From positions 101,033-165,032 of the forward strand of contig CAVQYC010000007.1 of the NCBI GenBank assembly GCA_963717985.1: a stretch of DNA of 64,000 bases. The letters are read 5' to 3'. Every line of letters starts with the position of its first letter. The first letter of the stretch is position 1. Below, piece by piece: positions 17,790-33,500 of the stretch. Under the pieces are notes generated by a model. It made no database searches and was not told the origin of the DNA. It saw only the letters and a list, made by a program, of their open reading frames with translations. This DNA comes from an uncultured delta proteobacterium. GTDB taxonomy: Bacteria; Desulfobacterota; Syntrophorhabdia; Syntrophorhabdales; WCHB1-27. The position numbers and the translations under genes are program-made.

Positions 17790-18368
17790 TTACTGAAACC
17801 GTGTAATGGGGAAGCCAAGCGAGGTCGCGCAGTATAGTACGCGATCCGCTTCGGCGTCTTGATCTTTCGTAAACCCCCGCGAGGAATGGCCTGCGGGAGA
17901 AGGGAATAAAAAAAGACGGCTTTCTATAACGGCCTTTGGATTTTGGGCTCCTTCTTTAATTTTTTCGGCGATAAGCCCTGCAAGTGCTTTATCGTGACCC
18001 GTCCAAATACCAATCTCCGTTATCTTCTCCGTGAGCTTGACGGCAACAACCTTTATCTTTATCTTCTTAGCCAAACCTTCAATTGAACCTCCGTCTCCCT
18101 CTTTGGTTTTTTCAATTCGGACAATTTCAATATGGAGATTCATCAGGGCTGTGACGGACATATCCCATGTGTTTTCAAAAGATGCATCAAGGGCTTCCTG
18201 AGCATCCGCCTTTCTGATTTCTTTCTGCAGCTCTGCTCCCTTAATGGCCAGTTGAGCGCCGCCAATTGCTGCTGTGGTCATGGGAATGGTTAATAAAGTA
18301 CATGCATGCAGGGCCAGCCATACACCGGCAAAAAAGCCAAATAATAAAACCGCCGGGATAATTTTCAT
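17790..18368 (-). CDS. hypothetical exported/membrane-anchored protein
   Basis: N-terminal hydrophobic segment with a Cys (LALHAC) that fits a lipobox poorly. Weak resemblance to DUF3568-type lipoproteins from memory. Downstream of the bactofilin array on the same strand. Confidence 0.4.
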   Translation of the reverse strand: MKIIPAVLLFGFFAGVWLALHACTLLTIPMTTAAIGGAQLAIKGAELQKEIRKADAQEALDASFENTWDMSVTALMNLHIEIVRIEKTKEGDGGSIEGLAKKIKIKVVAVKLTEKITEIGIWTGHDKALAGLIAEKIKEGAQNPKAVIESRLFLFPSPAGHSSRGFTKDQDAEADRVLYCATSLGFPITRFQ

Positions 18369-18623: not shown

Positions 18624-18980
18624 TCATTTCTTCATGACGCAGGAGCCATTCATTACCGATCCGCTTTCGATCATGATGGACGGTGTGGTGATGTTTCCCG
18701 TCTGGGTGGCGGTCTCCTTCAGCACCACCTGCTCGCTTGCGGTCACATCGCCGGTGATCTCTCCGTGGGATACGAGCTTCTTCGTGGTGACCTTGGCGGT
18801 GACCTTGGCGGTGGGACCGATGATGAGCAGTCCTTCCGATATGATCTCGCCATCGAGGGTACCCTTTATCATGAGAGAGCTCTTGAAGGTGATCGTGCCG
18901 CTGATATGGAGGTCATCGGCCAGGGTCGTGATGACGTTGGTTTCATCGATGTTTGATGCGCTCAATCCTATATCTGTCAT
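18624..18980 (-). CDS. bactofilin family protein (paralog 5 of 5 in transcription order)
   Basis: DUF583-type beta-helix repeats: ISGTITFKSSLMIKGTLDGEIISEGLLIIGPTAKV...GEITGDVTASEQVVLKETA...GNITT. Nearly identical DNA to 19039..19413. Confidence 0.9.
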   Translation of the reverse strand: MTDIGLSASNIDETNVITTLADDLHISGTITFKSSLMIKGTLDGEIISEGLLIIGPTAKVTAKVTTKKLVSHGEITGDVTASEQVVLKETATQTGNITTPSIMIESGSVMNGSCVMKK

Positions 18981-19038
18981 TTTGGGCTTCTCCTCGTGGT
19001 TTCTCTCGGCAGACCTTCTGCAGTGTCGCCTGCACCTT

Positions 19039-19413
19039 CTACATGGAGGAACCCTCCTTTCCCTTCATCGTGATCGACCCGTTGAAGAGGGAGCCGCTCT
19101 CTACGATGATATTCTGGGTGGTGATGTTTCCCGTCTGGGTGGCGGTCTCCTTCAGCATCACCTGCTCGCTTGCGGTCACATCGCCGGTGATCTCCCCGTG
19201 GGATACGAGCTTCTTCGTGGTGACCTTGGCGTTGACCTTGGCGGTGGGACCGACGATGAGCAGTCCTTCCGATACGATTTCGCCATCGAGGGTACCCTTT
19301 ATCATGAGAGAGCTCTTGAAGGTGATCGTGCCGCTGATATGGAGGTCATCGGCCAGTACAGTGGTGATGCCGGTTTCATCGATGCCTGACACAGGTGGGT
19401 TCATATTTGCCAT
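19039..19413 (-). CDS. bactofilin family protein (paralog 4)
   Basis: Same beta-helix repeat pattern. Shares an exact 38-nt run (19120-19157 = 18687-18724) and a long near-identical stretch with paralog 5. Confidence 0.9.
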   Translation of the reverse strand: MANMNPPVSGIDETGITTVLADDLHISGTITFKSSLMIKGTLDGEIVSEGLLIVGPTAKVNAKVTTKKLVSHGEITGDVTASEQVMLKETATQTGNITTQNIIVESGSLFNGSITMKGKEGSSM

Positions 19414-19506
19414 TTTTTACCTCCTCGTCGTTTGGTGGGTCTAGGTAATAACCAGGTACTGGGACATCAATCCTGCGTCACCTACCGAAAAGACCGCCGG
19501 GAGCGG

Positions 19507-20202
19507 TCAGAACAGCAGTTTCTTGGGTTCTTTTGGCGGCTTCGGTGTCCGTTCGGCACGCGTCCCGTGCCCCTCCTGCCCCCACCCCCGTTCCTCCGCC
19601 TCCTCCGTGTGTTCCTCCGCCTCCTCCTTGGTCGATATTACCTCTTCGGTGGCGGCTATCGCTTCTTCCGCAGGAAGACCGGAGTGCTCTTCAGAAATGG
19701 GGGCTGCCGGCTCCGCCATTTCCTCCTGTATGATGGGGGCTGGCTCCTCCTGAGGTTGAAGCTCCGGATCACGAACTCCCTGCCCTTCCGTCCCGAACTC
19801 CCTGCCCTCCTCACCCGTGTCATGCTGCGGTGATTCGGCAACTGCCTCTCTTTTCATCACGCAGGACCCGTTAAAGATAGAGCCGCTCTCCACGATAATA
19901 TACGGCGTGGTGATGTTTCCCGTCTGGACGGCAGTTCCTTTCAGTACGACCTGCTCGCTCGCGGTCACATCGCCGGTGATCTCTCCGTGGGAAACCAGAT
20001 TCTTCGTCGTGACCGCCGCGTTGACCTTGGCGGTGGGACCGACGATGAGCAGTCCCTCCGATATGATCTCGCCATTGAGGGTACCCTCTATCATGAGAGA
20101 GCTCCTGAACGTCATCGTGCCGGTGATATGGAGGTCCTCGGCCAGGGTCGTCGTGACGTTGGTTTCATCGATGTTCGATGCGCTCAATCCTATATCTGTC
20201 AT
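19507..20202 (-). CDS. bactofilin family protein with long acidic Glu/Pro-rich C-terminal tail (paralog 3)
   Basis: The N-terminal 117 aa form a bactofilin core (N-terminus MTDIGLSASNIDETNV shared with paralog 5). This is followed by a ~114-aa low-complexity E/P/A tail ending KPPKEPKKLLF. Confidence 0.85.
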   Translation of the reverse strand: MTDIGLSASNIDETNVTTTLAEDLHITGTMTFRSSLMIEGTLNGEIISEGLLIVGPTAKVNAAVTTKNLVSHGEITGDVTASEQVVLKGTAVQTGNITTPYIIVESGSIFNGSCVMKREAVAESPQHDTGEEGREFGTEGQGVRDPELQPQEEPAPIIQEEMAEPAAPISEEHSGLPAEEAIAATEEVISTKEEAEEHTEEAEERGWGQEGHGTRAERTPKPPKEPKKLLF

Positions 20203-20260
20203 TTTGAACTTCTCCTCATAGTTTTTCTCAACAGATCTCCCGCAATGCCGCCTGAGCCTC

Positions 20261-20635
20261 TCACCTGGAAAAACCCTCTTTTCCTTTCATCGTGATCGAC
20301 CCGTTGAAGAGGGAACCGCTCTCTACGATGATGTTCTGGGTAGTGATGTTCCCCATTTGGGTGGCGGTCTTTTTGAGTACCACCTGTTCGCTTGCGGTCA
20401 CATCTCCCTGGATCTCCCCGTGGGAAATAAGTCTCTTGGTCACAATCGTGGCGTTGATCTTTGCCGTGGGACCGACCACCAGCAGCCCTTCCGAGGTAAT
20501 CTCTCCTTCAAGAGACCCCTTTATCATGAGAGAAGTCTCGAACCTGAGACTGCCTTTGATGTGTAAGTCTTCGGCGATTACCGTGGTCACATTCTCTTCG
20601 GTGTACTCCGTGGTAGGGGGGACGATAGTTGCCAC
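20261..20635 (-). CDS. bactofilin family protein (paralog 2)
   Basis: Bactofilin core. The C-terminus NIIVESGSLFNGSITMKGKEG is shared with paralog 4. Confidence 0.9.
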   Translation of the reverse strand: MATIVPPTTEYTEENVTTVIAEDLHIKGSLRFETSLMIKGSLEGEITSEGLLVVGPTAKINATIVTKRLISHGEIQGDVTASEQVVLKKTATQMGNITTQNIIVESGSLFNGSITMKGKEGFSR

Positions 20636-20718
20636 TTTCTCCTCCTTGCTGTTAGTCTTTTTTTGTTTGCCTTCTTCTGAGCATCCTCGTCCTGCTTCTT
20701 CGACAATCTATCAAGGGA

Positions 20719-21150
20719 TCAGGGCTCATCGAAGCTGCCCGATTCCGCGGTAGTGCCCAGACTTGGTTTTCCACCTTTTTGGAAGGACAGCACCTCTCTG
20801 CTGTCCAATTCCGCTAGCCGTCGCATGTAGGAATGACCGTCAAAGCACGCACCTTCGGATATGCTCAGTTTGGTGGTGTAGATGTCGCCCGCGACAATTC
20901 CTTTAGACCCGATCTCCACGCTTTCGCTCGCCCTTATGCTGCCTTCCAGCTTGCCCGCCACCATCGTCCCTCTCGAGACCGCATCACCCTTCATACATCC
21001 CGTCTCTCCGACGATGAGCCAGTCTGCCGCGATGTTTCCTTCCACGTTTCCATCGATTCTTGCAATTCCCGGCGTAGACAGGTTTCCCGTGACGCTGGAC
21101 TCGGGACCGATGATGATTTCCAGAGATTGTTGCCGCTTCCTGAATATCAC
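20719..21150 (-). CDS. bactofilin family protein (divergent paralog 1)
   Basis: Divergent DUF583 core (GNLSTPGIARIDGNVEGNI...GDAVSRGTMVAGKLEGSI...GDIYTTKLSISEGACFDG). ATGA overlap with the M23 gene. Confidence 0.85.
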   Translation of the reverse strand: MIFRKRQQSLEIIIGPESSVTGNLSTPGIARIDGNVEGNIAADWLIVGETGCMKGDAVSRGTMVAGKLEGSIRASESVEIGSKGIVAGDIYTTKLSISEGACFDGHSYMRRLAELDSREVLSFQKGGKPSLGTTAESGSFDEP

Positions 21151-21983
21151 GACATATCCCCCAGAAAAGCTGCCGGATTCACGCGTTTTCTATCCTTCCA
21201 CACCTCGTAGTGCACGTGGGGTCCGGTGGAGTCGCCCGTGGAGCCCGAGAGGGAGATCTTCTGCCCCCTTTGGACCCGCTCTCCCAGTTTGACATAGTTC
21301 GTCTTGTTATGGGCGTAAACCGTGGTGAAGCCGTGTCCGTGCTCAAGCACGACGATGTAGCCGCTGTCGTCATGCCAGTTTGAAAAACTGACTATGCCGT
21401 CCGCGGTTGCCCTCACCACCGATCCGATGGGGGTCCGTATGTCGATGCCCTCATGAAAGGCTGACTCGCTGGTTATGGGATGTACCCGCCACCCGAAGGG
21501 CGAACTCACTTGCCCCTTCACGGGCCAGCCCGTCGGCGTCGACCGGTAGAGACTTTTTTGTTCGTTCAGATATTCTCTGATCTCTGAAACCGATTGGATC
21601 GTCTCGTCAACCTGTCTCCTCAACAAATTCTCGTCCGGGGCACCCAAATTGGGCATCTCCGGTATTTCCAGGATCTTCTTCTTCGAGTTGAAAGAGACGA
21701 GCCTGGCAAACTCCGATTCGGTCTTCCGAAGAGAGAAGATGACCTCCTTCAATTCCATGAGCTGGGACGAAACATGGCGGACCTTCTTCCGCATGCCATA
21801 GTACTCGGCGGTCCTGACACCCGTGGACAGAATGTACGTCCCTCCCACGACAGACAAAAGGAGACAACAAAAAAGCCCTATCACAGGAACCCTTATCCTC
21901 AGGGGCTTCACTTTGGAATGGGGGACAATCATGATGGTAACGGAAGTAAAGCTTTGTTTCAGAAAATGCTTTAGCTCGCCCAC
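21147..21983 (-). CDS. M23 (LytM-type) peptidoglycan endopeptidase, membrane-anchored
   Basis: N-terminal transmembrane segment and a coiled region. M23 motifs HEGIDI (HxxxD) and GPHVHYEV (HxH). Confidence 0.9.
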   Translation of the reverse strand: MGELKHFLKQSFTSVTIMIVPHSKVKPLRIRVPVIGLFCCLLLSVVGGTYILSTGVRTAEYYGMRKKVRHVSSQLMELKEVIFSLRKTESEFARLVSFNSKKKILEIPEMPNLGAPDENLLRRQVDETIQSVSEIREYLNEQKSLYRSTPTGWPVKGQVSSPFGWRVHPITSESAFHEGIDIRTPIGSVVRATADGIVSFSNWHDDSGYIVVLEHGHGFTTVYAHNKTNYVKLGERVQRGQKISLSGSTGDSTGPHVHYEVWKDRKRVNPAAFLGDMS

Positions 21984-22223: not shown

Positions 22224-22252
22224 TTGACCATGGAACTGTCCGGTGATATAAC
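22224..22252 (+). promoter_or_regulatory. sigma70-type promoter of the riboswitch-cbiM operon
   Basis: TTGACC (22224-22229), 17-nt spacer, TATAAC (22247-22252), about 10 nt upstream of the riboswitch. Confidence 0.45.
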
Positions 22253-22259
22253 AAAAATA

Positions 22260-22430
22260 CTTCGGGTGCCAAAAGGCGTAATAGGGAATCCCGTGAGGAC
22301 CGCAAGGGGTCCAAGTCGGGAGCGGTCCCGCCGCTGTAACCGGGATGAAGGCCACCATAGCCACTGAACGTTGATTCGGGAAGGCTGGTGAGTAGGACGA
22401 ACCGGGAGCCAGAAGACCTGCCCGAGGGTC
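22260..22430 (+). promoter_or_regulatory. cobalamin (B12) riboswitch aptamer
   Basis: Conserved elements read directly: GGTGCC..AATAGGGAA..CCGTGAGG, GTCCCGCCGCTGTAA, GCCACTG, GGGAAGGC, and the B12 box GAGCCAGAAGACCTGCC. Lies upstream of cbiM. Confidence 0.85.
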
Positions 22431-22498
22431 GGTCCGCACTTCATTGGGGTGTGGACGTTTCCCGCGGAGGAAATTGAGGATGAAGTAAATCAGGGTGC

Positions 22499-22537: not shown

Positions 22538-22644
22538 CCGGCCCGGCTTCCGCTCCACGGGCCCGGATAGCTGGGCAGAGAAGACGGTCGAAACGGATGT
22601 GTCCCTTGCGAGGTGCGCCTCATCGAGATAAAACAGGAGGGACC

Positions 22645-23418
22645 ATGAACAAGAAAGCGCTTGCCACGACTGCCCTGGCGATGCTCGCTCTTCTCCACGT
22701 GCTCTGCCCGTCCGATGCGCAGGCGATGCATATCACCGAGGGCCTGCTCCCCATAAACTGGGCCGTATGGTGGTTCGTCGTTGCCGCGCCTTTCGTTGCT
22801 TACGGCCTCTATAGACTTAAGAGAATGTCGGCTGTCGATCTTTCCTTCAAGCCCCTTGTCGGGCTCATGGCAGCGGTAGTCTTCATCCTCTCGTGCATGC
22901 CCATACCGGTGCCCACGGCCGGGACGTGCTCACACCCGTGCGGCACGGGGATGTCGGGTATATTGCTGGGCCCGGGCATAAGCGTGCTTGTCGCCTCGGT
23001 CGCGCTCCTGATGCAGGCGCTCTTCCTGGCCCATGGGGGCTTGAGCACCCTGGGCGCCAACATCGTCTCCATGGGTGTCATGGGATCCTTTGCGGGTTAT
23101 CTCACGTTCAAGGCCTTGAGGGGCTTCAAGGTCAACCTGGCCGTATCCGGCTTCGTCGCCGGCCTGCTCGCGGACTGGGCGACCTACTTCGCGACATCCG
23201 TCGAGCTTGCCTCGGGTATCAGAGGAAACTCGCCTTTCATGCCCCTTTTCTGGAAGATCCTTATCGCTTTCACCCCGACGCAGATTCCTCTGGGGATACT
23301 GGAAGGCGCCATTACCGGCGGAGTGATCGCGCTCCTCTATAAGAGGAGACCTGACCTCCTCGTGAAGATGGGCGTGGTAAAACAGACGGGCGGGGACCAA
23401 TCGGCATCCGGAAGGTGA
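22645..23418 (+). CDS. cbiM: CbiM/NikM-type metal (cobalt/nickel) ECF substrate-capture component
   Basis: Signal peptide ending AQA, then MHITEGLLP (the processed Met-His N-terminus characteristic of CbiM/NikM) and multiple transmembrane segments. AGGAGG RBS before the ATG at 22645. Confidence 0.85.
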   Translation: MNKKALATTALAMLALLHVLCPSDAQAMHITEGLLPINWAVWWFVVAAPFVAYGLYRLKRMSAVDLSFKPLVGLMAAVVFILSCMPIPVPTAGTCSHPCGTGMSGILLGPGISVLVASVALLMQALFLAHGGLSTLGANIVSMGVMGSFAGYLTFKALRGFKVNLAVSGFVAGLLADWATYFATSVELASGIRGNSPFMPLFWKILIAFTPTQIPLGILEGAITGGVIALLYKRRPDLLVKMGVVKQTGGDQSASGR

Positions 23419-23421
23419 CGC

Positions 23422-24252
23422 ATGATAGAGATCCGCGACCTGACCAGGACGTACGGCACCGTGCAGGCCGTCGACAGGGTAACGCTGACCATAGAAAAGG
23501 GAGAAGTCTTCGGCCTTCTCGGGCCGAACGGGGCGGGGAAAACGACTCTCATCAAGATGCTGACCCTGCTTTCGCGGCCTGATTCAGGCGCATTCACGGT
23601 GGCAGGCTTTGACGCGTCCCACCCTTCCGAGATCAAGCGGCTCATCGGCGCCATGCCCCAGGAAAATAACCTTGAGCGCGAGCTGACGGCCCGGGAGAAC
23701 CTGCTCATCTACGGGATGCTCCACAATCTCGGGGGGTTGGAGCGCAGAATCGAGGGAACGCTGGAGATGGTGGGGCTACTCGACAGGCGGGACTCGGTCG
23801 TCTCCAACTTCTCCGGGGGTATGCAAAGGCGGCTTCTCCTGGGCAGGGCCCTCATGACGGAGCCGGCGGTCGTTTTTCTCGACGAGCCTTCCATCGGCCT
23901 CGACCCCCAGATCAGGAGGCAGATGTGGGACCTCATACGGAAGGCGCGATTAGACGGGCGCACCGTGGTTATCACCACCCACTACATCGAGGAGGCCGAG
24001 ACCCTCTGCGACCGGGTGGGGGTCCTCTCGAAGGGCAGGCTGATCGCCCTCGACAGCCCGGCGGGCCTGAAAACGAAGGTGGGCGAGTACGTAGTCGAGT
24101 TCGTGAACCAGGAAGGACACCTCATCCAGCATATGTGCCGGACCAGGGCTGAGGCCCAGGACGCGGCAAGCCACATAGAAAATGGTGTCACCATCAGGAG
24201 GTCGAACCTGGAGGACGTTTTCATCAAGCTCACGGGGGAGCGGCTCGAATGA
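23422..24252 (+). CDS. ABC transporter ATP-binding protein (ABC-2/DrrA-like subfamily)
   Basis: Walker A GPNGAGKTT, signature FSGGMQRR, Walker B VVFLDEPSIGLD. Three-nt gap after cbiM. Confidence 0.9.
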   Translation: MIEIRDLTRTYGTVQAVDRVTLTIEKGEVFGLLGPNGAGKTTLIKMLTLLSRPDSGAFTVAGFDASHPSEIKRLIGAMPQENNLERELTARENLLIYGMLHNLGGLERRIEGTLEMVGLLDRRDSVVSNFSGGMQRRLLLGRALMTEPAVVFLDEPSIGLDPQIRRQMWDLIRKARLDGRTVVITTHYIEEAETLCDRVGVLSKGRLIALDSPAGLKTKVGEYVVEFVNQEGHLIQHMCRTRAEAQDAASHIENGVTIRRSNLEDVFIKLTGERLE

Positions 24253-24998
24253 CGCGGCTCACGGAATGGTATCCTATATACTTCAAGGAGATGCTTCTCT
24301 TCAAGCGGAAGCTCTTCAAGCTCGGCTATCTCTTCTCGGCCATGGTTGTCCCCATCATTTATCTCGTGGCTTTCGGTTTCGGCCTCGGCAGGAGCGTCCA
24401 GACGGGTCGCGGCACGTACCTCGACTTCCTGATCCCCGGGCTCGTGGCCATGAGCTCCATGAACAATTCCTATAGCTGGGTCGCGAGTGCCCTCAATCTG
24501 AACAGGCTCTACTTCAAGACCTTCCAGGTTTTCGTGCAGGCGCCCATCAGCCCCTTCTCCATCATGATCGGCGAGGTGCTGGCGGGCATTACCAAGGGAC
24601 TCTTCGCCTCCGTCCTCATCATGGCCGTCGGCTTTGCCGTCTCCACGCACTTCCGGGTGACGCCACTCTTTGTCATCGCCCTTCTTCTCAACTGTTCTCT
24701 CTTCGCGTGCCTTGGCATCGTGACGGGCATGGTCACGAAATCCCACGAGGATACGTCGACCTACTCGAACTTTTTCATCCTGCCCATGGCCTTTTTCAGC
24801 GGCACCTTCTTCCCCGTGGACAGGGCGCCCACGGTCATCAAGTGGATCGTTTATGTCATGCCCCTCACCCATACGAACATTCTGATACGGTCGGCGCACC
24901 TCGACGGGCAAGGCATCGCCTCGCTCGCCGTGCTTCTCGTCTACACGGCGGGCTTCTTCGCGTACGGATCGCATCTCATAAGGAGATACAGTGAGTAG
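24249..24998 (+). CDS. ABC-2 type transporter permease
   Basis: 249 aa, about 6 transmembrane segments, ABC-2 membrane-domain look (YFKEMLLFKRK... N-terminus). ATGA overlap with the ATPase. Confidence 0.85.
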   Translation: MTRLTEWYPIYFKEMLLFKRKLFKLGYLFSAMVVPIIYLVAFGFGLGRSVQTGRGTYLDFLIPGLVAMSSMNNSYSWVASALNLNRLYFKTFQVFVQAPISPFSIMIGEVLAGITKGLFASVLIMAVGFAVSTHFRVTPLFVIALLLNCSLFACLGIVTGMVTKSHEDTSTYSNFFILPMAFFSGTFFPVDRAPTVIKWIVYVMPLTHTNILIRSAHLDGQGIASLAVLLVYTAGFFAYGSHLIRRYSE

Positions 24999-26962: not shown

Positions 26963-26992
26963 TTGACATATTCGTTTACTTTCTGCTATGCT
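26963..26992 (+). promoter_or_regulatory. candidate promoter of the helicase-methylase-ATPase operon
   Basis: TTGACA (26963-26968), 18-nt spacer, TATGCT (26987-26992). Directly preceded by an AT-rich region with two TATATATAGC repeats. Confidence 0.35.
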
Positions 26993-26999
26993 GTTCTGT

Positions 27000-29900
27000 A
27001 TGAACGCAGAAGAAATAAAGACCATCCGTGCGAGACTGGGCTGTTCCCAACAGGAACTGGCCTCCATGCTTGGGGTCTCCTTTGCCACGGTCAACAGATG
27101 GGAGAATGGAAAGGCGAAGCCGCAGAAGGACAGATTAGATAGGATCCGCGCTTTGTTGGAGGAAAAGCTGTCCCCCGATGAGCCACTGCATCCTGTGGAA
27201 AGGCAGATGCAACTCATACCACGGCTTGATTTTGAAGGTGACCCCGAGGCCCTGAAGCTGGTTGTGGATGCCCATCGCCTTCAGAACGGACACCTTTTCA
27301 ACAAGGCATACGGACTTGAGCTTTCTCGCGTGGTCCCGCTGCCGCACCAGCGCATTGCGGTGTACGAGCATATGCTGCCCCAGAACCCTATGCGCTTCTT
27401 CCTCGCCGATGATGCCGGAGCCGGAAAAACCATCATGACCGGCCTTTACATCCGGGAGATGGTCAATCGTGGACGCCTATCCAGGGCCATCGTGTGTTGT
27501 CCCGCCGGTTTGACGTGGAATTGGCAGCGTGAGTTGAGACATTTCTTTGATCTCGACTTTGCGGTCCTTCGCGGGGTGGATTTCGCCAGAGGCAACCCCA
27601 TATCGGCAAACGGGAAATGCTTCGTCATCGTCAGCGTGGACACCGCAGCGACCGACGCTGTCAGAAATTTCCTGACATCGGAAGCAATCAATGCTTTCGA
27701 CCTGGTTGTTTTCGATGAGGCCCACAAGCTCTCATGGAACGACCCAAAAAGGGCGGATAGTAAAACACGCCGCTACCGGCTTGCTGAGACATTAGGCAGT
27801 AAAACAACCCATATGCTCCTCCTCACGGCGACCCCACACATGGGAAAGCCTTTCCCTTATTCGGCCCTATGGCGCCTCCTGGACCCGCACGTCTTTTCCT
27901 CTGAAGATGCCGTCTCGTCTTTATCGAAGGAAAAACAGTCAAAGTACTTTGCCAGACGCCTGAAAGAGGAGATGATCGATTATGAGGGGCGTCCGATTTA
28001 CATGCCCCGTCTCTGCCAGACTATCAGCTTCACACTTACCGAGGCGGAGCAATCCTTTTACAAAGAGACCTCGGAATACCTCCGCTGGAGTTACGAGACC
28101 AATACCACCCTCAACAGAAATGCGGCTGCCATGGTGGTGGCCGTGTTTCAGCGTCGCCTGGCCAGTTCCGTCTATGCGGTGTTGGAGTCGCTCAAACGGC
28201 GCCGCGCGCGAATCCTCCAAAACGCTTCGGATGGCTATGGGGGAGATCAGGCATCGGTTCCCGCTGTGTCTTTGCAGCACGTGATCGACTACTTTGATAA
28301 CAGCACGGCTGACGACAGCGAGCCAGCAGAGGACGGACGTGAAACGGATGAACATGTTGAGACAGCCGCCCTCAGTCTCGTGAAACCCGCAACGCCGGCG
28401 CAACTTCAAAGAGAATTGGAGTATCTCGAAAGGATCATTGAACTTGGCGAATCTGTCAGAGCGTCGCTCCAGGAGGCTAAGTTCTTCAAGCTTCGAGAGC
28501 TCATCGAATCGGCTCAATACCAAAATGAGAAGCTCCTCGTCTTTACAGAGCACCGGGATACCCTGGATTACCTGACACAGAGGTTCGAGGCCCTGGGGTA
28601 CACGGGGCAAATCGCGCACATCCACGGGGGTATGGCCGTGGAGGAGCGGGAGCGGCAGCGCATCTTCTTTATGTCACCGGAAATGCGTCGCTCCCAAGGG
28701 GTGAAAAATCACGATGATCCGAGCGCCAGGATTATGCTGGCTACTGACGCAGCGGGAGAAGGCATCAACCTGCAGTTCGCCTGGATCATGGTCAATTTCG
28801 ACATACCCTGGAATCCGGCCCGCCTGGAGCAGCGTATGGGAAGGCTCCACCGCTTTGGCCAAAGGCACCCGGAAGTTCGTATCTTCAACCTTGTTGCCGA
28901 GAATACGCGCGAAGGCGACGTGCTTGCAACGCTTCTCGAAAAACTGGAAGAGGCAAGAAAGGCCCTTTGCAGTGACAAGGTATTTGACGTCGTGGGCCAA
29001 CTGCTGCGAGACGTGTCACTCCGGGACCTTCTGAGGGATGCCCTTTTTGAGGCACCGCCTTACACCGCACAGAAAAAACTCGATTCGATCTTCGCCACGC
29101 AGAAACTGAGAGCGACTATCGAGGAACAAAGGAAGAATGCCTCTGCCTTTGGAGACGTGGCAAGACGGCTTGGTGAGCTAAACCGCGAGATAGATGCGGA
29201 GCGGTTCACCCGCCTCCTCCCCGCCTATGTTCAAAACTTCGTAGAGAAGGCCGCGCCTCGTCTTGGCGTGCAAATCGAAGGTGATCTGACCGGTGCAGCC
29301 CGCTTCGCTGTGTCGGGAAATGAAGGGCAATGGCTTTACCGGTTGGCAAATCACTTTTCCGGGGGCCTTCCTGATTACTTTTCCGTCCGGAACGATTTCT
29401 TTATAGAAGGAATCGATAGGTCCAGATGCGCCTTTCTTCGCCCAGGGGAGATCATCTTTGACGCCATGTGCAGCGAGACGATCAACCGCTTCCGGGCTGA
29501 TGTCATGAGAGGGGCAGCCTTTTGTGATCCCTTGGCGGAAAGGCCTTATTATCTCTCTGTCTACATCTGCCAGATCGGTGAGATCGAAGCAGGGTTTAAG
29601 GCTCAAAGACAAAAACCGATGAAAACTCTTTCCGACCGATTTCTGATGGGGATACGCTGGGACGAAGGAGGCAACTATGGAGAATGCGCCTTCAACCATT
29701 TGCTGGCCCTCCTCGCGGCCCAGCGCTCTCTCGTGTGGAAGGCGGGCACGCTCCTGGTGAACCCCGAAGAACAGGTCTATAAAGCAGACTCTTTCGCACG
29801 CGCGCTTGCCGACTCAACTGTCCTACAGCAGATACGATCGCGCTTGCGAACAGAAGCCTTTGCCCGGATCGATGATCTCACGAGAGGTTACGACTACTTG

Positions 29901-30512
29901 AGCAGTGAGTTGGCGCAGGCCCGTAGCGAGCTTGCCCGGCGCACCCGCGACGGGGACGCCGCCGCAATGCCGGAACTTGAAGACATCCGGAACAGGCAGA
30001 AACACCTTGAAGAAGACAAGGCCAAGGCAATGCTCTATGAGGAGCACCGTTCCGATCGTCTGGAGATCACCCACTTGGAGAGGATCGCGACCGCCCTCGT
30101 TGTCCCCGATACGACCCCTGCCGCGCAGGAGACCTATGACAATAGCATCGAAGAGATGGCCATGCGCATTGCCCGCAACTTCGAGGTGGACCGGTACAAG
30201 GCACGTGTTTACGATGTATCATCACCCCACCTAGCACGGGGGTATGATCTGGAGAGCCACCGCTCGAACGGTGAAAGAGTCGTCATAGAAGTGAAAGGAC
30301 GTGCGGGTCGCGGACCCATTCAACTGACAGAGAACGAATGGCCCACGGCAGCCAACGTCCGGGATCGCTACTGGCTCTACGTGGTGGTGGACTGCGCCAC
30401 AAAGCCCACACTCTATAGAGTCCAGGACCCGGCTTTCAAGCTGGCCGTGAAGACGCGACAAAGCTTCACCATAAATATCGGCGACATTATACAGGAGGCG
30501 GAAAGAGACTGA
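27000..30512 (+). CDS. XRE-HTH :: SNF2-family helicase :: DUF3883 (PD-(D/E)xK-like) fusion protein
   Basis: HTH: IKTIRARLGCSQQELASMLGVSFATVNRWENGKAKP. Helicase motifs: DDAGAGKT, VVFDEAHKL, LLLTATPHMG, LATDAAGEGINLQ, QRMGRLHRFGQ. C-terminus: GYDLESHRSNGERVVIEVKG...LTENEW...YWLYVV. Start set at the ATG at 27000 because the -10 box overlaps the ATG at 26988. Confidence 0.85.
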   Translation: MNAEEIKTIRARLGCSQQELASMLGVSFATVNRWENGKAKPQKDRLDRIRALLEEKLSPDEPLHPVERQMQLIPRLDFEGDPEALKLVVDAHRLQNGHLFNKAYGLELSRVVPLPHQRIAVYEHMLPQNPMRFFLADDAGAGKTIMTGLYIREMVNRGRLSRAIVCCPAGLTWNWQRELRHFFDLDFAVLRGVDFARGNPISANGKCFVIVSVDTAATDAVRNFLTSEAINAFDLVVFDEAHKLSWNDPKRADSKTRRYRLAETLGSKTTHMLLLTATPHMGKPFPYSALWRLLDPHVFSSEDAVSSLSKEKQSKYFARRLKEEMIDYEGRPIYMPRLCQTISFTLTEAEQSFYKETSEYLRWSYETNTTLNRNAAAMVVAVFQRRLASSVYAVLESLKRRRARILQNASDGYGGDQASVPAVSLQHVIDYFDNSTADDSEPAEDGRETDEHVETAALSLVKPATPAQLQRELEYLERIIELGESVRASLQEAKFFKLRELIESAQYQNEKLLVFTEHRDTLDYLTQRFEALGYTGQIAHIHGGMAVEERERQRIFFMSPEMRRSQGVKNHDDPSARIMLATDAAGEGINLQFAWIMVNFDIPWNPARLEQRMGRLHRFGQRHPEVRIFNLVAENTREGDVLATLLEKLEEARKALCSDKVFDVVGQLLRDVSLRDLLRDALFEAPPYTAQKKLDSIFATQKLRATIEEQRKNASAFGDVARRLGELNREIDAERFTRLLPAYVQNFVEKAAPRLGVQIEGDLTGAARFAVSGNEGQWLYRLANHFSGGLPDYFSVRNDFFIEGIDRSRCAFLRPGEIIFDAMCSETINRFRADVMRGAAFCDPLAERPYYLSVYICQIGEIEAGFKAQRQKPMKTLSDRFLMGIRWDEGGNYGECAFNHLLALLAAQRSLVWKAGTLLVNPEEQVYKADSFARALADSTVLQQIRSRLRTEAFARIDDLTRGYDYLSSELAQARSELARRTRDGDAAAMPELEDIRNRQKHLEEDKAKAMLYEEHRSDRLEITHLERIATALVVPDTTPAAQETYDNSIEEMAMRIARNFEVDRYKARVYDVSSPHLARGYDLESHRSNGERVVIEVKGRAGRGPIQLTENEWPTAANVRDRYWLYVVVDCATKPTLYRVQDPAFKLAVKTRQSFTINIGDIIQEAERD

Positions 30513-30513
30513 G

Positions 30514-33500
30514 ATGGTAGATAAAACGAGGCTCATCGAGGTGGCCTTCCCCGTGAAGCAGGCGTCTGTGGCCAGTGTGCATGAAAAGAACGTGAGACAC
30601 GGGCACATCTCGACCCTCCATATTTGGCCGGCCCGACGTCCCTTGGCGGCATGTCGCGCGGCCCTTTTAGCGACACTTCTTCCTGACCCCGGCGATCCAC
30701 AAAAGCGTCAGGAGCTTCTGGACCGGATCGGCGGCGCAGTGGCCATTAAGAACGTAAAGTCCACGGACGATGACGGGTTGAGCGTTACAGAAGAAAAAGA
30801 GGTGCTGGAGGACGGAGTACTTGCGTGGGGGCAGGAGAATGGCCCTGCCATGGCGGAATTCAGGGCCATGATTCGCGAGTACTACGGAGATAAGGCCCCC
30901 AAAGTCCTTGATCCCTTTGCCGGGGGTGGTGCGATTCCGCTCGAAGCAATGAGACTCGGATGCGACGTGACCGCATCGGACATCAACCCCGTGGCATGGT
31001 TCATACTGAAGTGTACCTTGGACTATCCGGCCCGATTCGCCGGGAAGAAGTGGCCTCTTCCCGAATTCGTAAAGGAATGGCCCGATTTCATCGAAGACTT
31101 TCAGACAGGAAAGGTCAAAAAAAGGAGGGGAGGGGCCGCCAGGGCATTCTTCGATCCACTGCAACTCACCTTTCTCGAGTTGCCTGAGGCCGATCTTGCC
31201 TGGCATGTGAGGGCCTGGGGGCGATGGGTCCTCGAACGGGCTCGGGCAGACCTGGCATCCCGCTACCCCGTCATCAATGGCGAACCTACGGTGGCATACC
31301 TTTGGGCGCGTACCGGTCGGGACAAGGCGGCGCCTTACGGGCGCATCCCGCTGCTCAAGACATTCTGGCTGTGCAAGAAGAAAGGTCGCCGAAGCGCGAT
31401 AATGCCCGTTCCGAAGGCGGACGGATCGGGGGTTGATTTCAGGATTCTCGATGAAAGGTTCTTTACCCATGGAGTACAGAAGCTCCATGATGACTATCCC
31501 CACCTGAAGACGTGGGAGGTGACGGCAGATGGTGTGAGCGAATTCCTTAACAAAGGTACGATGAACCGGGCGGGTGCATGGAGCCCCTGCACGGGGCGAC
31601 CGGGGTTGATCGCGCTCACGATGGACGACCTGCGCCGCCAGGGGCAACAGGGCCTCCTGGGGACACAGATGACCGCAGTCGTCGTTGAAGCGACGAAGCC
31701 GGGCAAAAAAACAACCTTCAAGAAGTATCGCCTGCCGGAAGAACAGGAACTGAAGGCGGCTGAAGTGGAAATTGAAGATCTGGAGGCGGTTTTCAAGGAT
31801 ATCCCTTTCGGTATTCCCGATGAGCCAACGCCGGCGGGTGGGGGTAGTGGAGCGTCGAGGGCATTTTCGCTTCACCAATATGGAATGAAGAAATGGCGTG
31901 ACATGTTCACCCCGCGGCAGTTGTTGGCATTAGGGGTGTTTGTCAAGCATACACGAAAGGCAATGGAGGAGATTGCGGGCCATGACGGTTTGGAGGTGCA
32001 GAAGGAGGCAGAGGCGATAGGAGGTTATCTTTCTATGATTCTCGACCGAGTTGCTGACCGCGGCAGTGCGGTGTGTTCTTGGACTTTGGCTCGGGAGAAC
32101 ATCCGAAACACTTTCTCACGGTTTGCCCTTCCTGTCGCGTGGGATTTTTGTGAGAGCGGGACCACAGTTGAAACCTCAGGTGGGTATCCAGGTCAGGTAG
32201 AACTCGTTGCACAATTCGTGGAACATGCCCTTCACATTGAGGTTCCGAGCAAATACGTTACGATACATAAACAATCGGCCACAGAACCTCAGAGCACGCC
32301 AGTCAGTCTGATTCTCACCGATCCTCCTTACTATGATGCAATTCCCTATTCAGACTTGATGGATTTCTTTCACATATTTTTACGGCGCGTCCTGCGCGGC
32401 CTTTGTCCTGCAATCGATCAAGCCTTTGATACGCCGCTTTCGCCAAAGTGGGATCGAGAGAGAAATGATGGAGAGCTGATTGATGATGAATCGAGGTTTG
32501 ATGGCAATAGAGAGAAATCCAAGAAGGCCTATGAGGACGGGATGGCGAAAGCGTTTCAGAACTGTCTTGACGGCCTCGAAGAACACGGTCGTTTGGTGGT
32601 AGTCTTTGCCAACAAAGAAGTGGTCGCGTGGGAGACACTCATTGCTGCCCTTATCCGCAGTGGGGCTGTCGTAACGGCAAGCTGGCCTATCCAGACAGAA
32701 CGGACTGAGCGCGTCCGGAATGTAGCCGCTGCCGGCCTTGCTTCCTCCGTCTGGATCGTCTGCCGCAAAAGAGACAAGTTCTCTCAGCCGGGCTGGGAAG
32801 AGGCGGTGCTGGATCAGATGAGGCAGAAGCTCTTCGAGCCGCGAGAGGCCTTGGGCGGGAGAAACATATTGCAGTACTATTTCGATCTCGGTATCCGGGG
32901 GCCCGACTTCATCTGGGCGGCCCTCGGTCCGGCCCTTGAAGCCTACAGCGCCCACCCCTATGTCAAGAAGCCGGCGGGCGGGATCATGACGGTCCCCGAA
33001 TTCCTGAAAGAAGTACGGAGGCTCGTGCTCCATTTCTCTCTGGGGGAGTTGCCCGGCTTTCGGGAAATTCAGCAGAGCACCCAAGGCCGCGGCGAAGGGA
33101 TAGAGCTCGATCCCGTCACCCAATATTACCTCCTCCACAGGGCTTATTTCGGTCTCGGCCAGTCGCCTGCAGGGGCATGTATCCTTTACGCCAATGCCTG
33201 TGGGAAGAATGAGACAGAACTGAAGATGGTCTGGAACATCATCGAACAGGGCGGGAAATCGAAGAGAGGCAGGCCATCTGCAAAGGATTCCGATAACGGC
33301 GATGAGGAAGCCGAATCCAAGGGGAATGAGTATCGCCTCTTGGGATGGCAGGAAAGGATCGGACGCGACGATTTGGGCGAATTGAGGGCAGGAATGGCTC
33401 CGCCCCTCATCGACCGGCTTCATAGGCTCATGTTCCTCTTCCAGCAGAATCGTGCTGGTGAGGTTCAGCAAACCTTTGACGGCTGGGGCCTCTCCAGTGA

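What the first reader, a model, noticed from the sequence alone, without database searches (positions are those of the whole stretch)
18624..21983. M23 endopeptidase followed by five tandem bactofilin genes, with near-identical, mosaic paralogs
**Arrangement.** One minus-strand operon encodes a membrane-anchored LytM/M23 peptidase. Its stop overlaps a divergent bactofilin, and four more bactofilins follow.

**Similarity between paralogs.**
- Paralogs 4 and 5 share an exact 38-nt run (18687-18724 = 19120-19157). By my count they differ at only a handful of positions over the following ~230 nt.
- Spacers between units are related as well.
- The N-terminus MTDIGLSASNIDETNV is shared by paralogs 3 and 5.
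- The C-terminus NIIVESGSLFNGSITMKGKEG is shared by paralogs 2 and 4.
- This mosaic pattern points to recent duplication and gene conversion.

**Why it matters.** Bactofilin-M23 pairing is an established morphogenesis module, as I recall from Helicobacter Csd1/CcmA and stalked budding alphaproteobacteria (BacA/LmdC). Five co-transcribed paralogs, three under concerted evolution, is unusual. It suggests a heteropolymeric or dosage-tuned cytoskeletal scaffold.
Basis: partly seen in the sequence, partly recalled or inferred. Interest (0 to 1): 0.6.

Follow-up and report, generated by a model that had tools for sequence, protein, structure and literature searches.

The report
M23 peptidase with five-bactofilin array
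An uncultured Syntrophorhabdales bacterium carries a known cell-shape module (a wall-cutting M23 enzyme plus a bactofilin filament protein) extended by four extra tandem bactofilin genes, whose middle parts are kept almost identical by gene conversion while their ends stay distinct.

Summary
One minus-strand cluster (18624-21983) encodes an LmdC-type membrane M23 endopeptidase and five bactofilins. The array is 99.6-100% identical in four independent assemblies.

- **Duplication is old, not recent.** The same five-gene array occurs in relatives whose M23 is 85-87% identical, a bac1-bac4 version at 74%, and a four-gene array (bac1, long-tailed L, S1, S2) at 59-66%. More distant M23 orthologs carry one bactofilin.
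- **Origin.** bac2 and bac3 are the two halves of the ancestral L gene, split by a copied S1-end/spacer/S2-start junction.
- **Gene conversion is ongoing but confined to the core (codons 20-98).** bac4/bac5 core dS is 0.035; orthologs give 0.13-0.15 and the gene ends about 1.4. Informative sites partition cleanly (p about 1e-6). bac3 is partly homogenised, with its first 16 codons recently overwritten by bac5. bac2 is not.
- **Only bac1 has a membrane-targeting N-terminus.** bac3 has a 115-residue disordered acidic tail.
- **Arrays elsewhere are dynamic.** Some gained a gene or lost M23.

Likely function, inferred only: a mixed bactofilin scaffold positioning the peptidase. This is a new variant of a known module, of moderate interest.

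The parts
21147..21983 (-). LmdC-type M23 (LytM) endopeptidase gene, 278 aa. It has a cytoplasmic N-terminus with a beta-hairpin, one TM helix, a long coiled-coil region and a C-terminal M23 domain.
   Evidence: PF01551 E=1e-31. AF2 model, pLDDT 78: strands 14-19 and 28-33, helix 34-105, helix 118-146, M23 fold 158-268. Foldseek hits EnvC, ShyA and Csd1. HxxxD at residue 177 and HxH at residue 256 are present. H177, D181, H225, H256 and H258 are invariant in 25 homologs.
21885..21944 (-). Codons 14-33 of M23: the predicted cytoplasmic beta-hairpin (SVTIMIVPHSKVKPLRIRVP), the likely bactofilin-binding element.
   Evidence: AF2 strands 14-19 and 28-33. T16, M18, P21 and H22 are invariant. An LmdC beta-hairpin binds BacA (PMC10945521).
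21816..21884 (-). Codons 34-56 of M23: the transmembrane segment.
   Evidence: The highest Kyte-Doolittle window, 2.34, lies at residues 34-52. AF2 predicts a helix starting at residue 34.
20719..21150 (-). bac1: divergent canonical bactofilin, 143 aa, with a membrane-targeting-like N-terminus (M)IFRKRQQ. Its GTG start overlaps the M23 stop, suggesting translational coupling.
   Evidence: PF04519 E=4e-23. Only 21-24% identical to bac2-5. Its orthologs follow M23 in essentially all relatives and begin MIFxKK or MFxK. The MTS consensus is MFSKKKK (PMC12448750).
20261..20635 (-). bac2, 124 aa: a chimera of the ancestral L-type N-terminus and core with an S1-type C-terminus. Its core is not homogenised with the other paralogs.
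   Evidence: Segment trees. Core dS versus bac3 and bac4 is 0.88-1.03; ortholog dN/dS is about 0.02.
20203..20260 (-). 58-nt spacer 2-3 with a GAGGAG ribosome-binding site. It is a paralog of spacer 4-5.
   Evidence: 74% identical to spacer 4-5, with 0 of 2000 shuffles reaching this. It is orthologous across species at 83-88% identity.
19507..20202 (-). bac3, 231 aa: S2-type N-terminus, a partly homogenised core, an L-type last winding, and a 115-residue acidic disordered tail ending ...PKEPKKLLF.
   Evidence: PF04519 E=9e-24. Segment trees. AF2 predicts a beta-helix at 18-116 (pLDDT 85-97) and pLDDT below 50 for most of residues 121-231. Tail composition and the conserved C-terminal motif are shown.
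20155..20202 (-). bac3 codons 1-16: a recent conversion tract copied from bac5 (18933-18980).
   Evidence: 1 of 48 nt differs from bac5 in this genome, against 12-13 of 48 in the two closest relatives. 8 of 48 differ from orthologous bac3 genes.
19414..19506 (-). 93-nt spacer 3-4. A GC-rich hairpin plus TTTT (19492-19508) lies directly after the bac3 stop, and a GAGGAGG ribosome-binding site is present.
   Evidence: Terminator-like hit. The hairpin is not conserved in two relatives, so it is at most a weak, lineage-specific attenuator.
19039..19413 (-). bac4, 124 aa: S1-type at both ends.
   Evidence: PF04519 E=1e-24. Segment trees. Aligns to solved bactofilins 6RIA and 2N3D over residues 16-113.
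19120..19356 (-). bac4 core, codons 20-98: the gene-conversion tract shared with the bac5 core.
   Evidence: 6 of 237 nt differ and dS=0.035. Every informative site in this region groups paralogs by genome.
18981..19038 (-). 58-nt spacer 4-5 with a GAGGAG ribosome-binding site.
18624..18980 (-). bac5, 118 aa: S2-type at both ends. It has Met at the position of the polymerisation-interface Phe (BacA F130).
   Evidence: PF04519 E=3e-25. Segment trees. The alignment to 2N3D places BacA F130 opposite bac4 F110, and bac5 has M at that position.
18687..18923 (-). bac5 core, codons 20-98: the gene-conversion tract shared with the bac4 core.
19909..20145 (-). bac3 core, codons 20-98: partly homogenised with bac4 and bac5.
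   Evidence: Core dS to bac4 and bac5 is 0.23-0.27, no greater than to its own orthologs (0.30-0.32). In relative R87, bac3 core1 clusters with the bac5 genes.
20273..20341 (-). bac2 codons 99-121: an S1-type 3' end nearly identical to bac4 19051-19119.
   Evidence: 4 of 69 nt differ. The C-segment tree nests bac2 among the bac4 genes.

Best explanation
**What it is.** This is an LmdC-type M23 endopeptidase / bactofilin morphogenesis module in an uncultured Syntrophorhabdales bacterium. It has been extended by a lineage-specific tandem family of bactofilins.

**Shown: parts and architecture.**
- The peptidase has the LmdC architecture: cytoplasmic beta-hairpin, TM helix, coiled coil, and an M23 domain with intact catalytic motifs.
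- bac1, whose start overlaps the M23 stop, is the canonical partner. It has an MFxKK-like membrane-targeting N-terminus.
- bac2-bac5 belong to a second subfamily that lacks that motif.

**Shown: history.**
- The ancestral array was bac1-L-S1-S2.
- Unequal recombination placed a copy of the [S1 3' end - 58-nt spacer - S2 5' end] junction inside L. This split L into bac2 (L head, S1 tail-end) and bac3 (S2 head, L tail-end plus disordered tail).
- This happened before the lineages now 74-87% identical in M23 diverged.
- Since then, homologous gene conversion has repeatedly homogenised about 240 bp of central beta-helix. It is complete for bac4/bac5, partial for bac3 and absent for bac2.
- The first strand, the last winding and the termini stay paralog-specific and orthologous across species.
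- All genes are under purifying selection.

**Inferred: function.**
- The genes are co-transcribed.
- The near-identical cores let bac2-5 co-assemble into a mixed polymer.
- bac1 tethers the assembly to the membrane and binds the peptidase's cytoplasmic hairpin.
- The bac3 tail acts as a recruiting hub, as BacP's does.
- The scaffold directs local peptidoglycan cleavage.
For: **Domains and structure.**

**Conservation and copy number.**
- Five-gene arrays at 85-87% M23 identity.
- bac1-bac4 at 74%.
- Four-gene arrays at 59-66%.
- A single bactofilin after roughly thirty M23 orthologs at 53% identity or less, and in distant phyla.

**Chimeric origin.** Segment-wise trees, the colinear block alignment and paralogous spacers that are nonetheless orthologous across species.

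**Gene conversion.**
- bac4/bac5 core dS is 0.035, 0.017 and 0.128 in three genomes.
- Orthologs give 0.13-0.15, gene ends 1.4 or more, and M23 0.19-0.39.
- Outgroup S1/S2 cores give 0.9 or more.
- In quartet tests, 37-38 'orthology' sites all lie in codons 1-20 or from about codon 100 onward. All 3-9 'concerted' sites lie in codons 28-96, with 0 homoplasy-control sites. Clustering p=8.6e-7, 3.4e-8 and 3.8e-3.
- Cross-species core distances are the same for orthologous and non-orthologous pairs, 9-13 of 237.
- bac3 codons 1-16 match bac5 only in this lineage.

**Independent assemblies.** They give identical sequences.

**Functional analogies from the literature.**
- The LmdC beta-hairpin binds BacA, and 226 species have adjacent genes (PMC10945521).
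- MTS consensus (PMC12448750).
- BacNOP form a joint polymer and the BacP tail acts as a hub (PMC5703909).
Against: - No expression, polymerisation or interaction data exist for this organism.
- No promoter was detected, and a terminator-like hairpin follows bac3.
- Related arrays remain intact where M23 is deleted or reduced to a 50-codon remnant (L181, L182). The S/L paralogs therefore do not strictly need the neighbouring peptidase gene.
- The two-step versus one-step route for the split of L cannot be distinguished.
- The number of post-speciation 'concerted' sites is small (3-9 per comparison).
Confidence: 0.62

Rival explanations
1. The S/L-type bactofilins (bac2-5) form a cytoskeletal scaffold that works independently of the M23 peptidase. 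Only bac1 belongs to the peptidase module, and the adjacency is historical rather than functional.
For: - L181 keeps bac2, an extra paralog, bac3, bac4 and bac5 as intact ORFs. M23 and most of bac1 are deleted there.
- L182 keeps bac2-4, while M23 is a 50-codon remnant and bac1 is truncated.
- bac2-5 lack the membrane-targeting motif.
- bac1 is only 21-24% identical to them.
- A solitary S/L copy sits next to an IS91 element.
Against: - In at least ten independent lineages the S/L genes sit directly after M23-bac1, in the same orientation, with 51-196-nt gaps. The flanking genes differ in every lineage, so the block is kept together.
- Genomes holding the M23-less arrays may carry an intact module elsewhere.
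Confidence: 0.28
2. The near-identity of bac3, bac4 and bac5 reflects a very recent duplication, with no need for gene conversion.
For: bac4 and bac5 share a 77-nt exact run and 97% core identity.
Against: - The same genes have ends with saturated synonymous divergence (dS about 1.4).
- Those ends are orthologous to S1 and S2 genes of relatives as distant as 63-66% M23 identity.
- The whole five-gene array is shared with lineages at dS 0.2-0.4.
- Spacers 2-3 and 4-5 have diverged to 74% identity.
Confidence: 0.03
3. The array or its homogenised cores are an assembly or polishing artefact of a repeat in a metagenome.
For: One short-read contig (L006) is clearly chimeric. It is 100% identical to the window for 3871 nt, then switches abruptly inside bac2 to another lineage's bac3. 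One long-read contig has a frameshifted bac2.
Against: - Four assemblies from different samples and sources give the array at 99.6-100% identity.
- bac4 is exactly identical in four assemblies and bac5 in three.
- The R87 bac4 is identical in three assemblies from JGI and ENA.
Confidence: 0.03
4. Core identity is maintained by purifying selection on the protein or on codons or mRNA structure, not by recombination.
For: The beta-helix core is strongly conserved at the protein level in all paralogs.
Against: - Synonymous sites are homogenised too: third-position identity is 0.94 within the genome against 0.37-0.54 for S1/S2 in outgroup arrays.
- Paralogs group by genome, not by gene, in the core, with zero homoplasy-control sites.
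Confidence: 0.03

Closest known systems
BacA-LmdC module of Hyphomonas neptunium and Rhodospirillum rubrum (PMC10945521)
   Same: - An M23 endopeptidase gene lies adjacent to a bactofilin gene.
- The peptidase is bitopic, with a short cytoplasmic N-terminus carrying a beta-hairpin, a TM helix, a coiled coil and a C-terminal M23 domain with catalytic residues.
- The partner bactofilin (bac1) has an MTS-like N-terminus.
   Different: - Gene order here is peptidase first, with overlapping stop and start.
- Four further bactofilins of a separate subfamily follow.
- No experimental data exist.
- Sequence relationship to LmdC itself was not tested, because no LmdC sequence was available in the tools.
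BacN-BacO-BacP operon of Myxococcus xanthus (PMC5703909)
   Same: - Several bactofilin paralogs with highly similar cores lie in one putative operon.
- One paralog (BacP there, bac3 here) has a long disordered C-terminal extension that serves as an interaction hub.
- Co-assembly into one structure is reported for BacNOP.
   Different: - BacNOP is linked to PadC/ParABS chromosome organisation, not to an M23 peptidase.
- No ParB-like gene is near this array.
- There are four to five genes here rather than three.
- I found no report of concerted evolution for BacNOP or any other bactofilin in the searched library.
Csd1/Pgp3-CcmA helical-shape loci of Helicobacter and Campylobacter
   Same: M23 peptidase adjacent to a single bactofilin. 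Campylobacter loci with this arrangement were recovered in my scan (L033, L077). The Csd1 fold matches the M23 domain.
   Different: The NCBIfam Pgp3 model scores 89 bits against a cutoff of 300. Those loci have a single bactofilin and a different N-terminal architecture.
Domain-restricted concerted evolution of tandem paralogs (general phenomenon, e.g. duplicated mtrA in methanogens, PMC4632066)
   Same: Long-lasting gene conversion keeps part of duplicated genes identical within a genome, while orthologs diverge between genomes.
   Different: The tract here coincides with the central windings of a polymer-forming beta-helix. It excludes the terminal windings that form the filament contacts.

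Membership tests
Bactofilin (Pfam PF04519 / DUF583) | Match to the bactofilin domain profile above the gathering score | tested here: met
   All five score 82-89 bits against a cutoff of 27.9.
Bactofilin (Pfam PF04519 / DUF583) | Right-handed beta-helical core flanked by disordered termini | tested here: met
   The bac3 AF2 model has a beta-strand ladder at 18-116 with pLDDT 85-97, and disordered termini. bac4 aligns over residues 16-113 to solved bactofilins 6RIA and 2N3D.
Bactofilin (Pfam PF04519 / DUF583) | Nucleotide-independent polymerisation | not testable with these tools
   Needs purified protein with EM, or co-expression imaging.
Canonical membrane-binding (BacA-type) bactofilin | N-terminal membrane-targeting sequence resembling MFSKKKK (hydrophobic residue 2, Lys/Arg at about positions 4 and 7) | tested here: met
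   This applies to bac1 only: (M)IFRKRQQ, with orthologs MIFKKKEQ, MMMFRKKA, MFSKNTEK and MFGKKQPK. Consensus from PMC12448750. bac2-5 begin MATIVPPT, MTDIGLSA or MANMNPPV and do not meet it.
LmdC-type M23 endopeptidase (PMC10945521) | Bitopic architecture: short cytoplasmic N-terminus, TM helix, periplasmic coiled coil, C-terminal M23 domain | tested here: met
   AF2 model, hydropathy and Pfam. This rests on prediction only.
LmdC-type M23 endopeptidase (PMC10945521) | Conserved cytoplasmic beta-hairpin that binds the bactofilin | tested here: inconclusive
   A hairpin is predicted (strands 14-19 and 28-33, pLDDT about 70) with invariant T16, M18, P21 and H22. Neither binding nor homology to the LmdC hairpin could be tested.
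LmdC-type M23 endopeptidase (PMC10945521) | Intact Zn-binding and catalytic residues (HxxxD, HxH), meaning an active hydrolase rather than an EnvC/NlpD-type activator | tested here: met
   H177-x3-D181 and H256-x-H258 are present. They are invariant, together with H225, in 25 homologs. Activity itself was not tested.
LmdC-type M23 endopeptidase (PMC10945521) | Gene adjacent to a bactofilin gene | tested here: met
   4-nt overlap with bac1. This adjacency is conserved in nearly all orthologs examined.
BacNOP/PadC scaffold (M. xanthus) | Linked padC (ParB-like) gene and ParABS connection | tested here: not met
   Neighbours are an unannotated ORF, TatA, HPPK and AFOR on one side and CbiM/ABC genes on the other. 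No ParB-like domain is present.
BacNOP/PadC scaffold (M. xanthus) | Tandem paralogs with similar cores, one bearing a long disordered C-terminal extension | tested here: met
   bac2-5 and the bac3 tail. This shows it 'works like', not membership.
Csd1/Pgp3 helical-shape peptidases | Score above the NCBIfam Pgp3 cutoff | tested here: not met
   89 bits against a cutoff of 300.
Concerted evolution by gene conversion | Paralogs within a genome are more similar than orthologs between genomes, including at synonymous sites, over a bounded tract, with conflicting phylogenies along the gene | tested here: met
   This holds for the bac4/bac5 core in three genomes, for R59 paralogs, and for the bac3 5' end in this genome.

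The most novel reading that the evidence does not exclude
**Proposed reading.** The array encodes an ordered heteropolymer.
- Gene conversion keeps the central windings of the beta-helix interchangeable.
- Selection preserves three N-terminal and three C-terminal 'end types'. [quoted passage not shown]

**What follows.**
- The ancient split of L shuffled these ends. bac2 became L-head/S1-tail and bac3 became S2-head/L-tail.
- A later crossover in L181 made an S2-head/S1-tail gene.
- Unequal recombination would thus act as a generator of new subunit-connectivity combinations in a bacterial cytoskeletal filament.
Probability: 0.15. Interest if true: 0.75.

Novelty: new variant of a known kind. 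Interest (0 to 1): 0.45.

Why it matters
**What is already known.** Bactofilin-M23 modules are an established way of shaping bacterial cells. Multi-paralog bactofilin scaffolds are known from Myxococcus.

**What this locus adds.**
- A whole clade (Syntrophorhabdales, syntrophic anaerobes of peat and sediment) has expanded the module to four to six tandem bactofilins.
- It gives an unusually clean natural experiment. Recombination erases divergence in the central beta-helix but never in the terminal winding and tails.
- This marks the ends as the functionally specialised parts: filament contacts, membrane or client binding.

**Testable predictions.**
- Which residues set bactofilin subunit pairing.
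- Whether mixed filaments have a defined order.
- What a long acidic tail with a conserved W...KKLLF end recruits.

**A practical warning.** Such arrays are prone to chimeric assembly in metagenomes.

Tried and rejected
1. **Species-representative genome scan with an M23 alignment.** The patterns saturated on generic M23 motifs. No close relative was returned (best 48% identity). It served only to show that distant orthologs carry one bactofilin.
2. **L006 as a strain with an unsplit L gene.** Rejected. The contig is 100% identical to the window for 3871 nt, then switches abruptly inside bac2 to a sequence matching another lineage's bac3 (P0309-like). It is a chimeric contig or a recombinant.
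3. **P0359 as an unsplit L in an array.** It is a solitary, tail-truncated copy next to an IS91 transposase.
4. **The hairpin after bac3 as a conserved internal terminator.** It is not conserved in R87 or R74.
5. **Looking for the array near ffh in the cultured Syntrophorhabdus aromaticivorans.** Synteny is not conserved. Whether that genome has the array remains unknown.
6. **NCBIfam.** It has no specific model for any of the bactofilins or the 192-aa downstream ORF. M23 falls below every equivalog cutoff.
7. **Literature searches for bactofilin with gene conversion, or with tandem paralogs.** Nothing on the topic.
8. **The sigma-70 scan.** It found no promoter upstream of M23. This is uninformative for this phylum.

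Full report
**1. Observation**

ORF listing and Pfam scans confirm one minus-strand cluster.

| Gene | Coordinates (-) | Length | Pfam |
|---|---|---|---|
| M23 peptidase | 21147-21983 | 278 aa | PF01551, E=1e-31 |
| bac1 | 20719-21150 | 143 aa | PF04519 |
| bac2 | 20261-20635 | 124 aa | PF04519 |
| bac3 | 19507-20202 | 231 aa | PF04519 |
| bac4 | 19039-19413 | 124 aa | PF04519 |
| bac5 | 18624-18980 | 118 aa | PF04519 |

- All five bactofilins match PF04519 with E=1e-23 to 1e-25.
- The bac1 GTG start overlaps the M23 TGA stop (GTGA).
- bac2 to bac5 are each preceded by a GGAGG-type ribosome-binding site. Gaps between the bactofilin genes are 58-93 nt.
- bac1 is only 21-24% identical to the other four.
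The longest exact bac4/bac5 run is actually 77 nt, and the two cores differ at 6 of 237 nt.
- The shared N-terminus (bac3 = bac5) and C-terminus (bac2 = bac4) are as described.
- Spacers 2-3 and 4-5 are both 58 nt and 74% identical; 0 of 2000 shuffles reach this.
- The block bac2-spacer-bac3 aligns colinearly with bac4-spacer-bac5 over about 790 nt.

**2. Not an artefact**

- The identical M23 protein is encoded on 12 contigs.
- The 3.8-kb array region is 100% identical in two assemblies, one of them a 1.4-Mb contig. It is 99.9% identical in a third and 99.6% in a fourth, all from different samples.
- bac4 is exactly identical in four assemblies and bac5 in three. The bac4 of the nearest relative is identical in three assemblies from two data sources.

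**3. Organism**

The Ffh protein encoded about 8 kb away is 88-91% identical to proteins named for Syntrophorhabdales MAGs (unnamed hits reach 100%). It is 79% identical to that of Syntrophorhabdus aromaticivorans. Contigs come from peat and wetland metagenomes.

**4. Distribution in relatives**

I used the M23 protein as an anchor.

| M23 identity to window | Array found |
|---|---|
| 85-87% | Same five genes, same lengths (143/124/231/124/118); one contig has a frameshifted bac2 |
| 74% | bac1-bac4 only |
| 59-66%, at least six lineages | Four genes: bac1, long-tailed 'L' (185-247 aa), 'S1' (about 124 aa), 'S2' (117-118 aa) |
| 63% (Syntrophus-labelled MAG) and about thirty loci at 53% or less with enough downstream sequence | Exactly one bactofilin; one exception has three |
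| Distant phyla, including Campylobacter | One bactofilin |

- Flanking genes differ in every lineage, so the block is conserved as a unit.
- Homologs of bac4 number only about 240 clusters, and every named one is Syntrophorhabdales or a MAG of that neighbourhood.
- Multi-bactofilin arrays are therefore a clade trait, not a peculiarity of this genome.

**5. Origin of the five-gene form**

I built neighbour-joining trees separately for the N-terminal codons, two core segments and the C-terminal codons.

- bac2 has an L-type N-terminus and core but an S1-type C-terminus.
- bac3 has an N-terminus sister to S2, and an L-type C-terminus and tail.
- bac4 is S1 throughout its ends, and bac5 is S2.
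- Spacer 2-3 is a paralog of the S1-S2 spacer. Each spacer is nonetheless orthologous across species at 83-91% identity.

The simplest history is that a copy of [S1 3' end - spacer - S2 5' end] was placed inside L, splitting it into two genes. This could happen in two ways:
- an unequal crossover (S2 x L) followed by a deletion (L x S1), or
- a single gap-repair conversion whose ends invaded S1 and S2.

This predates the divergence of lineages with M23 dS of 0.2-0.4 and of the 74% lineage.

**6. Gene conversion**

Nei-Gojobori estimates, where 'core' is codons 20-98:

| Comparison | dS |
|---|---|
| bac4/bac5 core, this genome | 0.035 |
| bac4/bac5 core, two relatives | 0.017 and 0.128 |
| bac4 or bac5 orthologs, core | 0.13-0.15 |
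| M23, between these genomes | 0.19-0.39 |
| bac1, between these genomes | 0.25-0.33 |
| bac4/bac5 ends (first 19 and last about 20 codons) | 1.4 to saturated |
| S1/S2 cores in outgroup arrays | 0.9 to saturated |

- The outgroup values show there is no intrinsic synonymous constraint on the core.
- In quartets (bac4 and bac5 from two genomes), 37-38 sites group sequences by gene. All of them lie in codons 1-20 or from about codon 100 onward.
- All 3-9 sites that group sequences by genome lie in codons 28-96. No site supports the third, homoplasy-control topology.
- The probability of that contiguity is 8.6e-7, 3.4e-8 and 3.8e-3 for the three genome pairs. Fisher's test on synonymous differences, core versus ends, gives p=1e-9.
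- Cross-genome core distances are the same for orthologous and non-orthologous pairs (9-13 of 237). The core has lost all orthology signal.
- bac3 is intermediate, with core dS 0.17-0.41 to bac4 and bac5. In one relative its first core segment clusters with bac5.
- The bac2 core is not homogenised (dS about 0.9-1.0).
- The first 16 codons of bac3 differ from bac5 at 1 of 48 nt here, against 12-13 of 48 in the two closest relatives. This is a recent conversion in this lineage. One metagenome relative (L101) shows a similar bac3 head.
- An outgroup array (R59) shows independent homogenisation: 24 'by genome' sites against 6 'by gene'.
- Ortholog dN/dS values of 0.02-0.22 show that all paralogs are under purifying selection.

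**7. Where the tract lies in the protein**

- bac4 aligns to the solved bactofilins 6RIA and 2N3D over residues 16-113.
- An AF2 model of bac3 gives a confident beta-helix from residue 18 to 116 (pLDDT 85-97). Nearly all of the remaining 115 residues have pLDDT below 50.
- The conversion tract covers every winding except the first strand and the last three strands.
- That last winding carries the residue equivalent to BacA F130, a polymerisation-interface Phe (PMC12448750). It is Phe in bac2-4 and Met in bac5 and most S2 orthologs.

**8. The peptidase and bac1**

- The AF2 model (25-sequence alignment, pLDDT 78) shows a cytoplasmic beta-hairpin (14-19 and 28-33), a helix starting at residue 34 that includes the hydrophobic TM segment, a second long helix, and an M23 fold.
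- Foldseek finds EnvC, ShyA, Csd1 and LytM.
- HxxxD and HxH motifs are present and invariant.
- This is the architecture described for LmdC, whose cytoplasmic beta-hairpin binds BacA. That paper found adjacent bactofilin/M23 genes in 226 species (PMC10945521).
- bac1 and its orthologs begin MIFRKRQQ, MIFKKKEQ, MFSKNTEK and similar. This fits the membrane-targeting consensus MFSKKKK (PMC12448750). bac2-5 do not fit it.
- The same paper notes that the most prevalent N-terminal motif in Thermodesulfobacteriota bactofilins differs fundamentally from the consensus.

**9. The bac3 tail**

- L-type tails are 69-130 residues long with 22-29% Asp+Glu.
- Most end in a conserved aromatic/basic motif: W..PKEPKKLLF, SKWFKRELF or PKLPKTELF.
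- The closest precedent is BacP of the Myxococcus BacNOP operon. Its long C-terminal extension recruits PadC/ParA, while the three paralogs form one structure (PMC5703909).
- No ParB-like gene is near this array.

**10. Dynamics elsewhere**

- **L181.** M23 and most of bac1 are deleted; a bac1 3' remnant and a tRNA-Leu remain. The array has gained a gene with an S2-type head and an S1-type tail-end between bac2 and bac3, flanked by two nearly identical 58-nt spacers. This is the expected product of one bac3 x bac2 unequal crossover.
- **L182.** M23 is reduced to a 50-codon fusion of its first 35 codons to its 3' end. bac1 is truncated, and bac2-4 persist.
- **Solitary copy.** A solitary bac2-head/bac3-tail gene lies beside an IS91 transposase on three to four contigs.

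These loci show that the family is recombinationally active. They also show that the S/L paralogs can persist without the neighbouring peptidase gene. This is the main evidence for the rival view that they function independently.

**11. Mechanism proposed**

Shown:
- identities, architecture and conservation;
- the chimeric origin;
- bounded, ongoing gene conversion;
- purifying selection.

Inferred:
- co-transcription, from short gaps, strong ribosome-binding sites and no conserved terminator;
- bac1 as the membrane tether and peptidase receptor;
- co-assembly of bac2-5 through near-identical cores, by analogy with BacA/BacD and BacNOP;
- the bac3 tail as a client hub;
- local control of peptidoglycan cleavage.

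I put about 0.9 on the evolutionary account, about 0.5 on the functional one and 0.62 on the whole.

**12. Verdict**

- This is a new variant of the known bactofilin-M23 module, namely a clade-wide tandem expansion with core-restricted concerted evolution. It is not a new kind of system.
- I found no report of concerted evolution in bactofilins in the searched library.
- Interest is moderate.
- The most novel reading still open is that the conserved, shuffled end types encode subunit order in a heteropolymer.

Noticed in passing
window 22247-22439 (+), followed by 22597-24998: A full-length cobalamin riboswitch (RF00174, 109 bits) sits upstream of divergently oriented CbiM and ABC transporter genes, right next to the M23 gene's upstream region. 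This is ordinary cobalt-uptake regulation.
   Followed up: partly
L181 3591-6529 (ENA ERZ25039466 contig_11773): A related array has lost M23 and most of bac1; a bac1 3' remnant and tRNA-Leu(caa) at 3605-3692 remain. It has gained an extra chimeric bactofilin (S2-type head, S1-type tail-end) with duplicated, near-identical 58-nt spacers. It comes from the same sample as one assembly of the window's own array, so it may be a second locus or a second population.
   Followed up: partly
L182 3800-6055 (ENA ERZ25039519 contig_1086): The M23 gene is reduced to a 50-codon remnant, with the first 35 codons fused to the 3' end. bac1 is truncated to 123 aa, while bac2, bac3 (197 aa) and bac4 remain intact.
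   Followed up: partly
L178 1911-2477; also L179 and L180: A solitary 188-aa bactofilin with a bac2-type head, a bac3-type last winding and a truncated tail lies directly beside an IS91-family transposase and an integrase, far from any M23 gene. It appears on three to four independent contigs.
   Followed up: partly
L006 3872 onward (NCBI GCA_052915985.1): This contig is 100% identical to the window for 3871 nt. Inside bac2 (about codon 54) it then switches abruptly to 10-15% divergence, matching another lineage's bac3. It is probably a chimeric short-read contig at the conserved core, less probably a real recombinant.
   Followed up: yes
L089 9351-9788 (ENA ERZ25039512 contig_26689): bac2 of the 85% relative is frameshifted after about codon 66 in a 1-Mb contig. 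This is either a sequencing indel or a real pseudogene; it is unresolved.
   Followed up: no
window 18651-18653 (bac5 codon 110): bac5 and most S2-type orthologs have Met where other bactofilins have the polymerisation-interface Phe (BacA F130, bac4 F110). The R59 ortholog keeps Phe.
   Followed up: partly
window 17790-18368 (-): A 192-aa ORF lies 255 nt downstream of bac5. It has a hydrophobic N-terminus and no Pfam or NCBIfam match. It is not conserved next to the arrays of relatives, so it is probably not part of the module.
   Followed up: partly
L113 6765-8394 (JGI Ga0335069_10001891): In a 53%-identity M23 lineage the order is bac1, a short S-like gene, then a long-tailed L-like gene. 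This is the reverse of the usual L-then-S order and suggests an independent or rearranged expansion.
   Followed up: no
window ~26988-31983 (+) (= L001 1-4996): A large SNF2/helicase protein with HTH and NOV_C domains lies next to a DUF1156 protein. This looks like a defence- or restriction-like gene pair and is unrelated to the finding.
   Followed up: no
window 19492-19508 (-): A GC-rich hairpin plus TTTT overlaps the bac3 stop codon (fold energy -21.8 kcal/mol for the whole 57-nt segment folded around it). It is not conserved in two relatives. It could lower read-through into bac4 and bac5 in this lineage only.
   Followed up: partly
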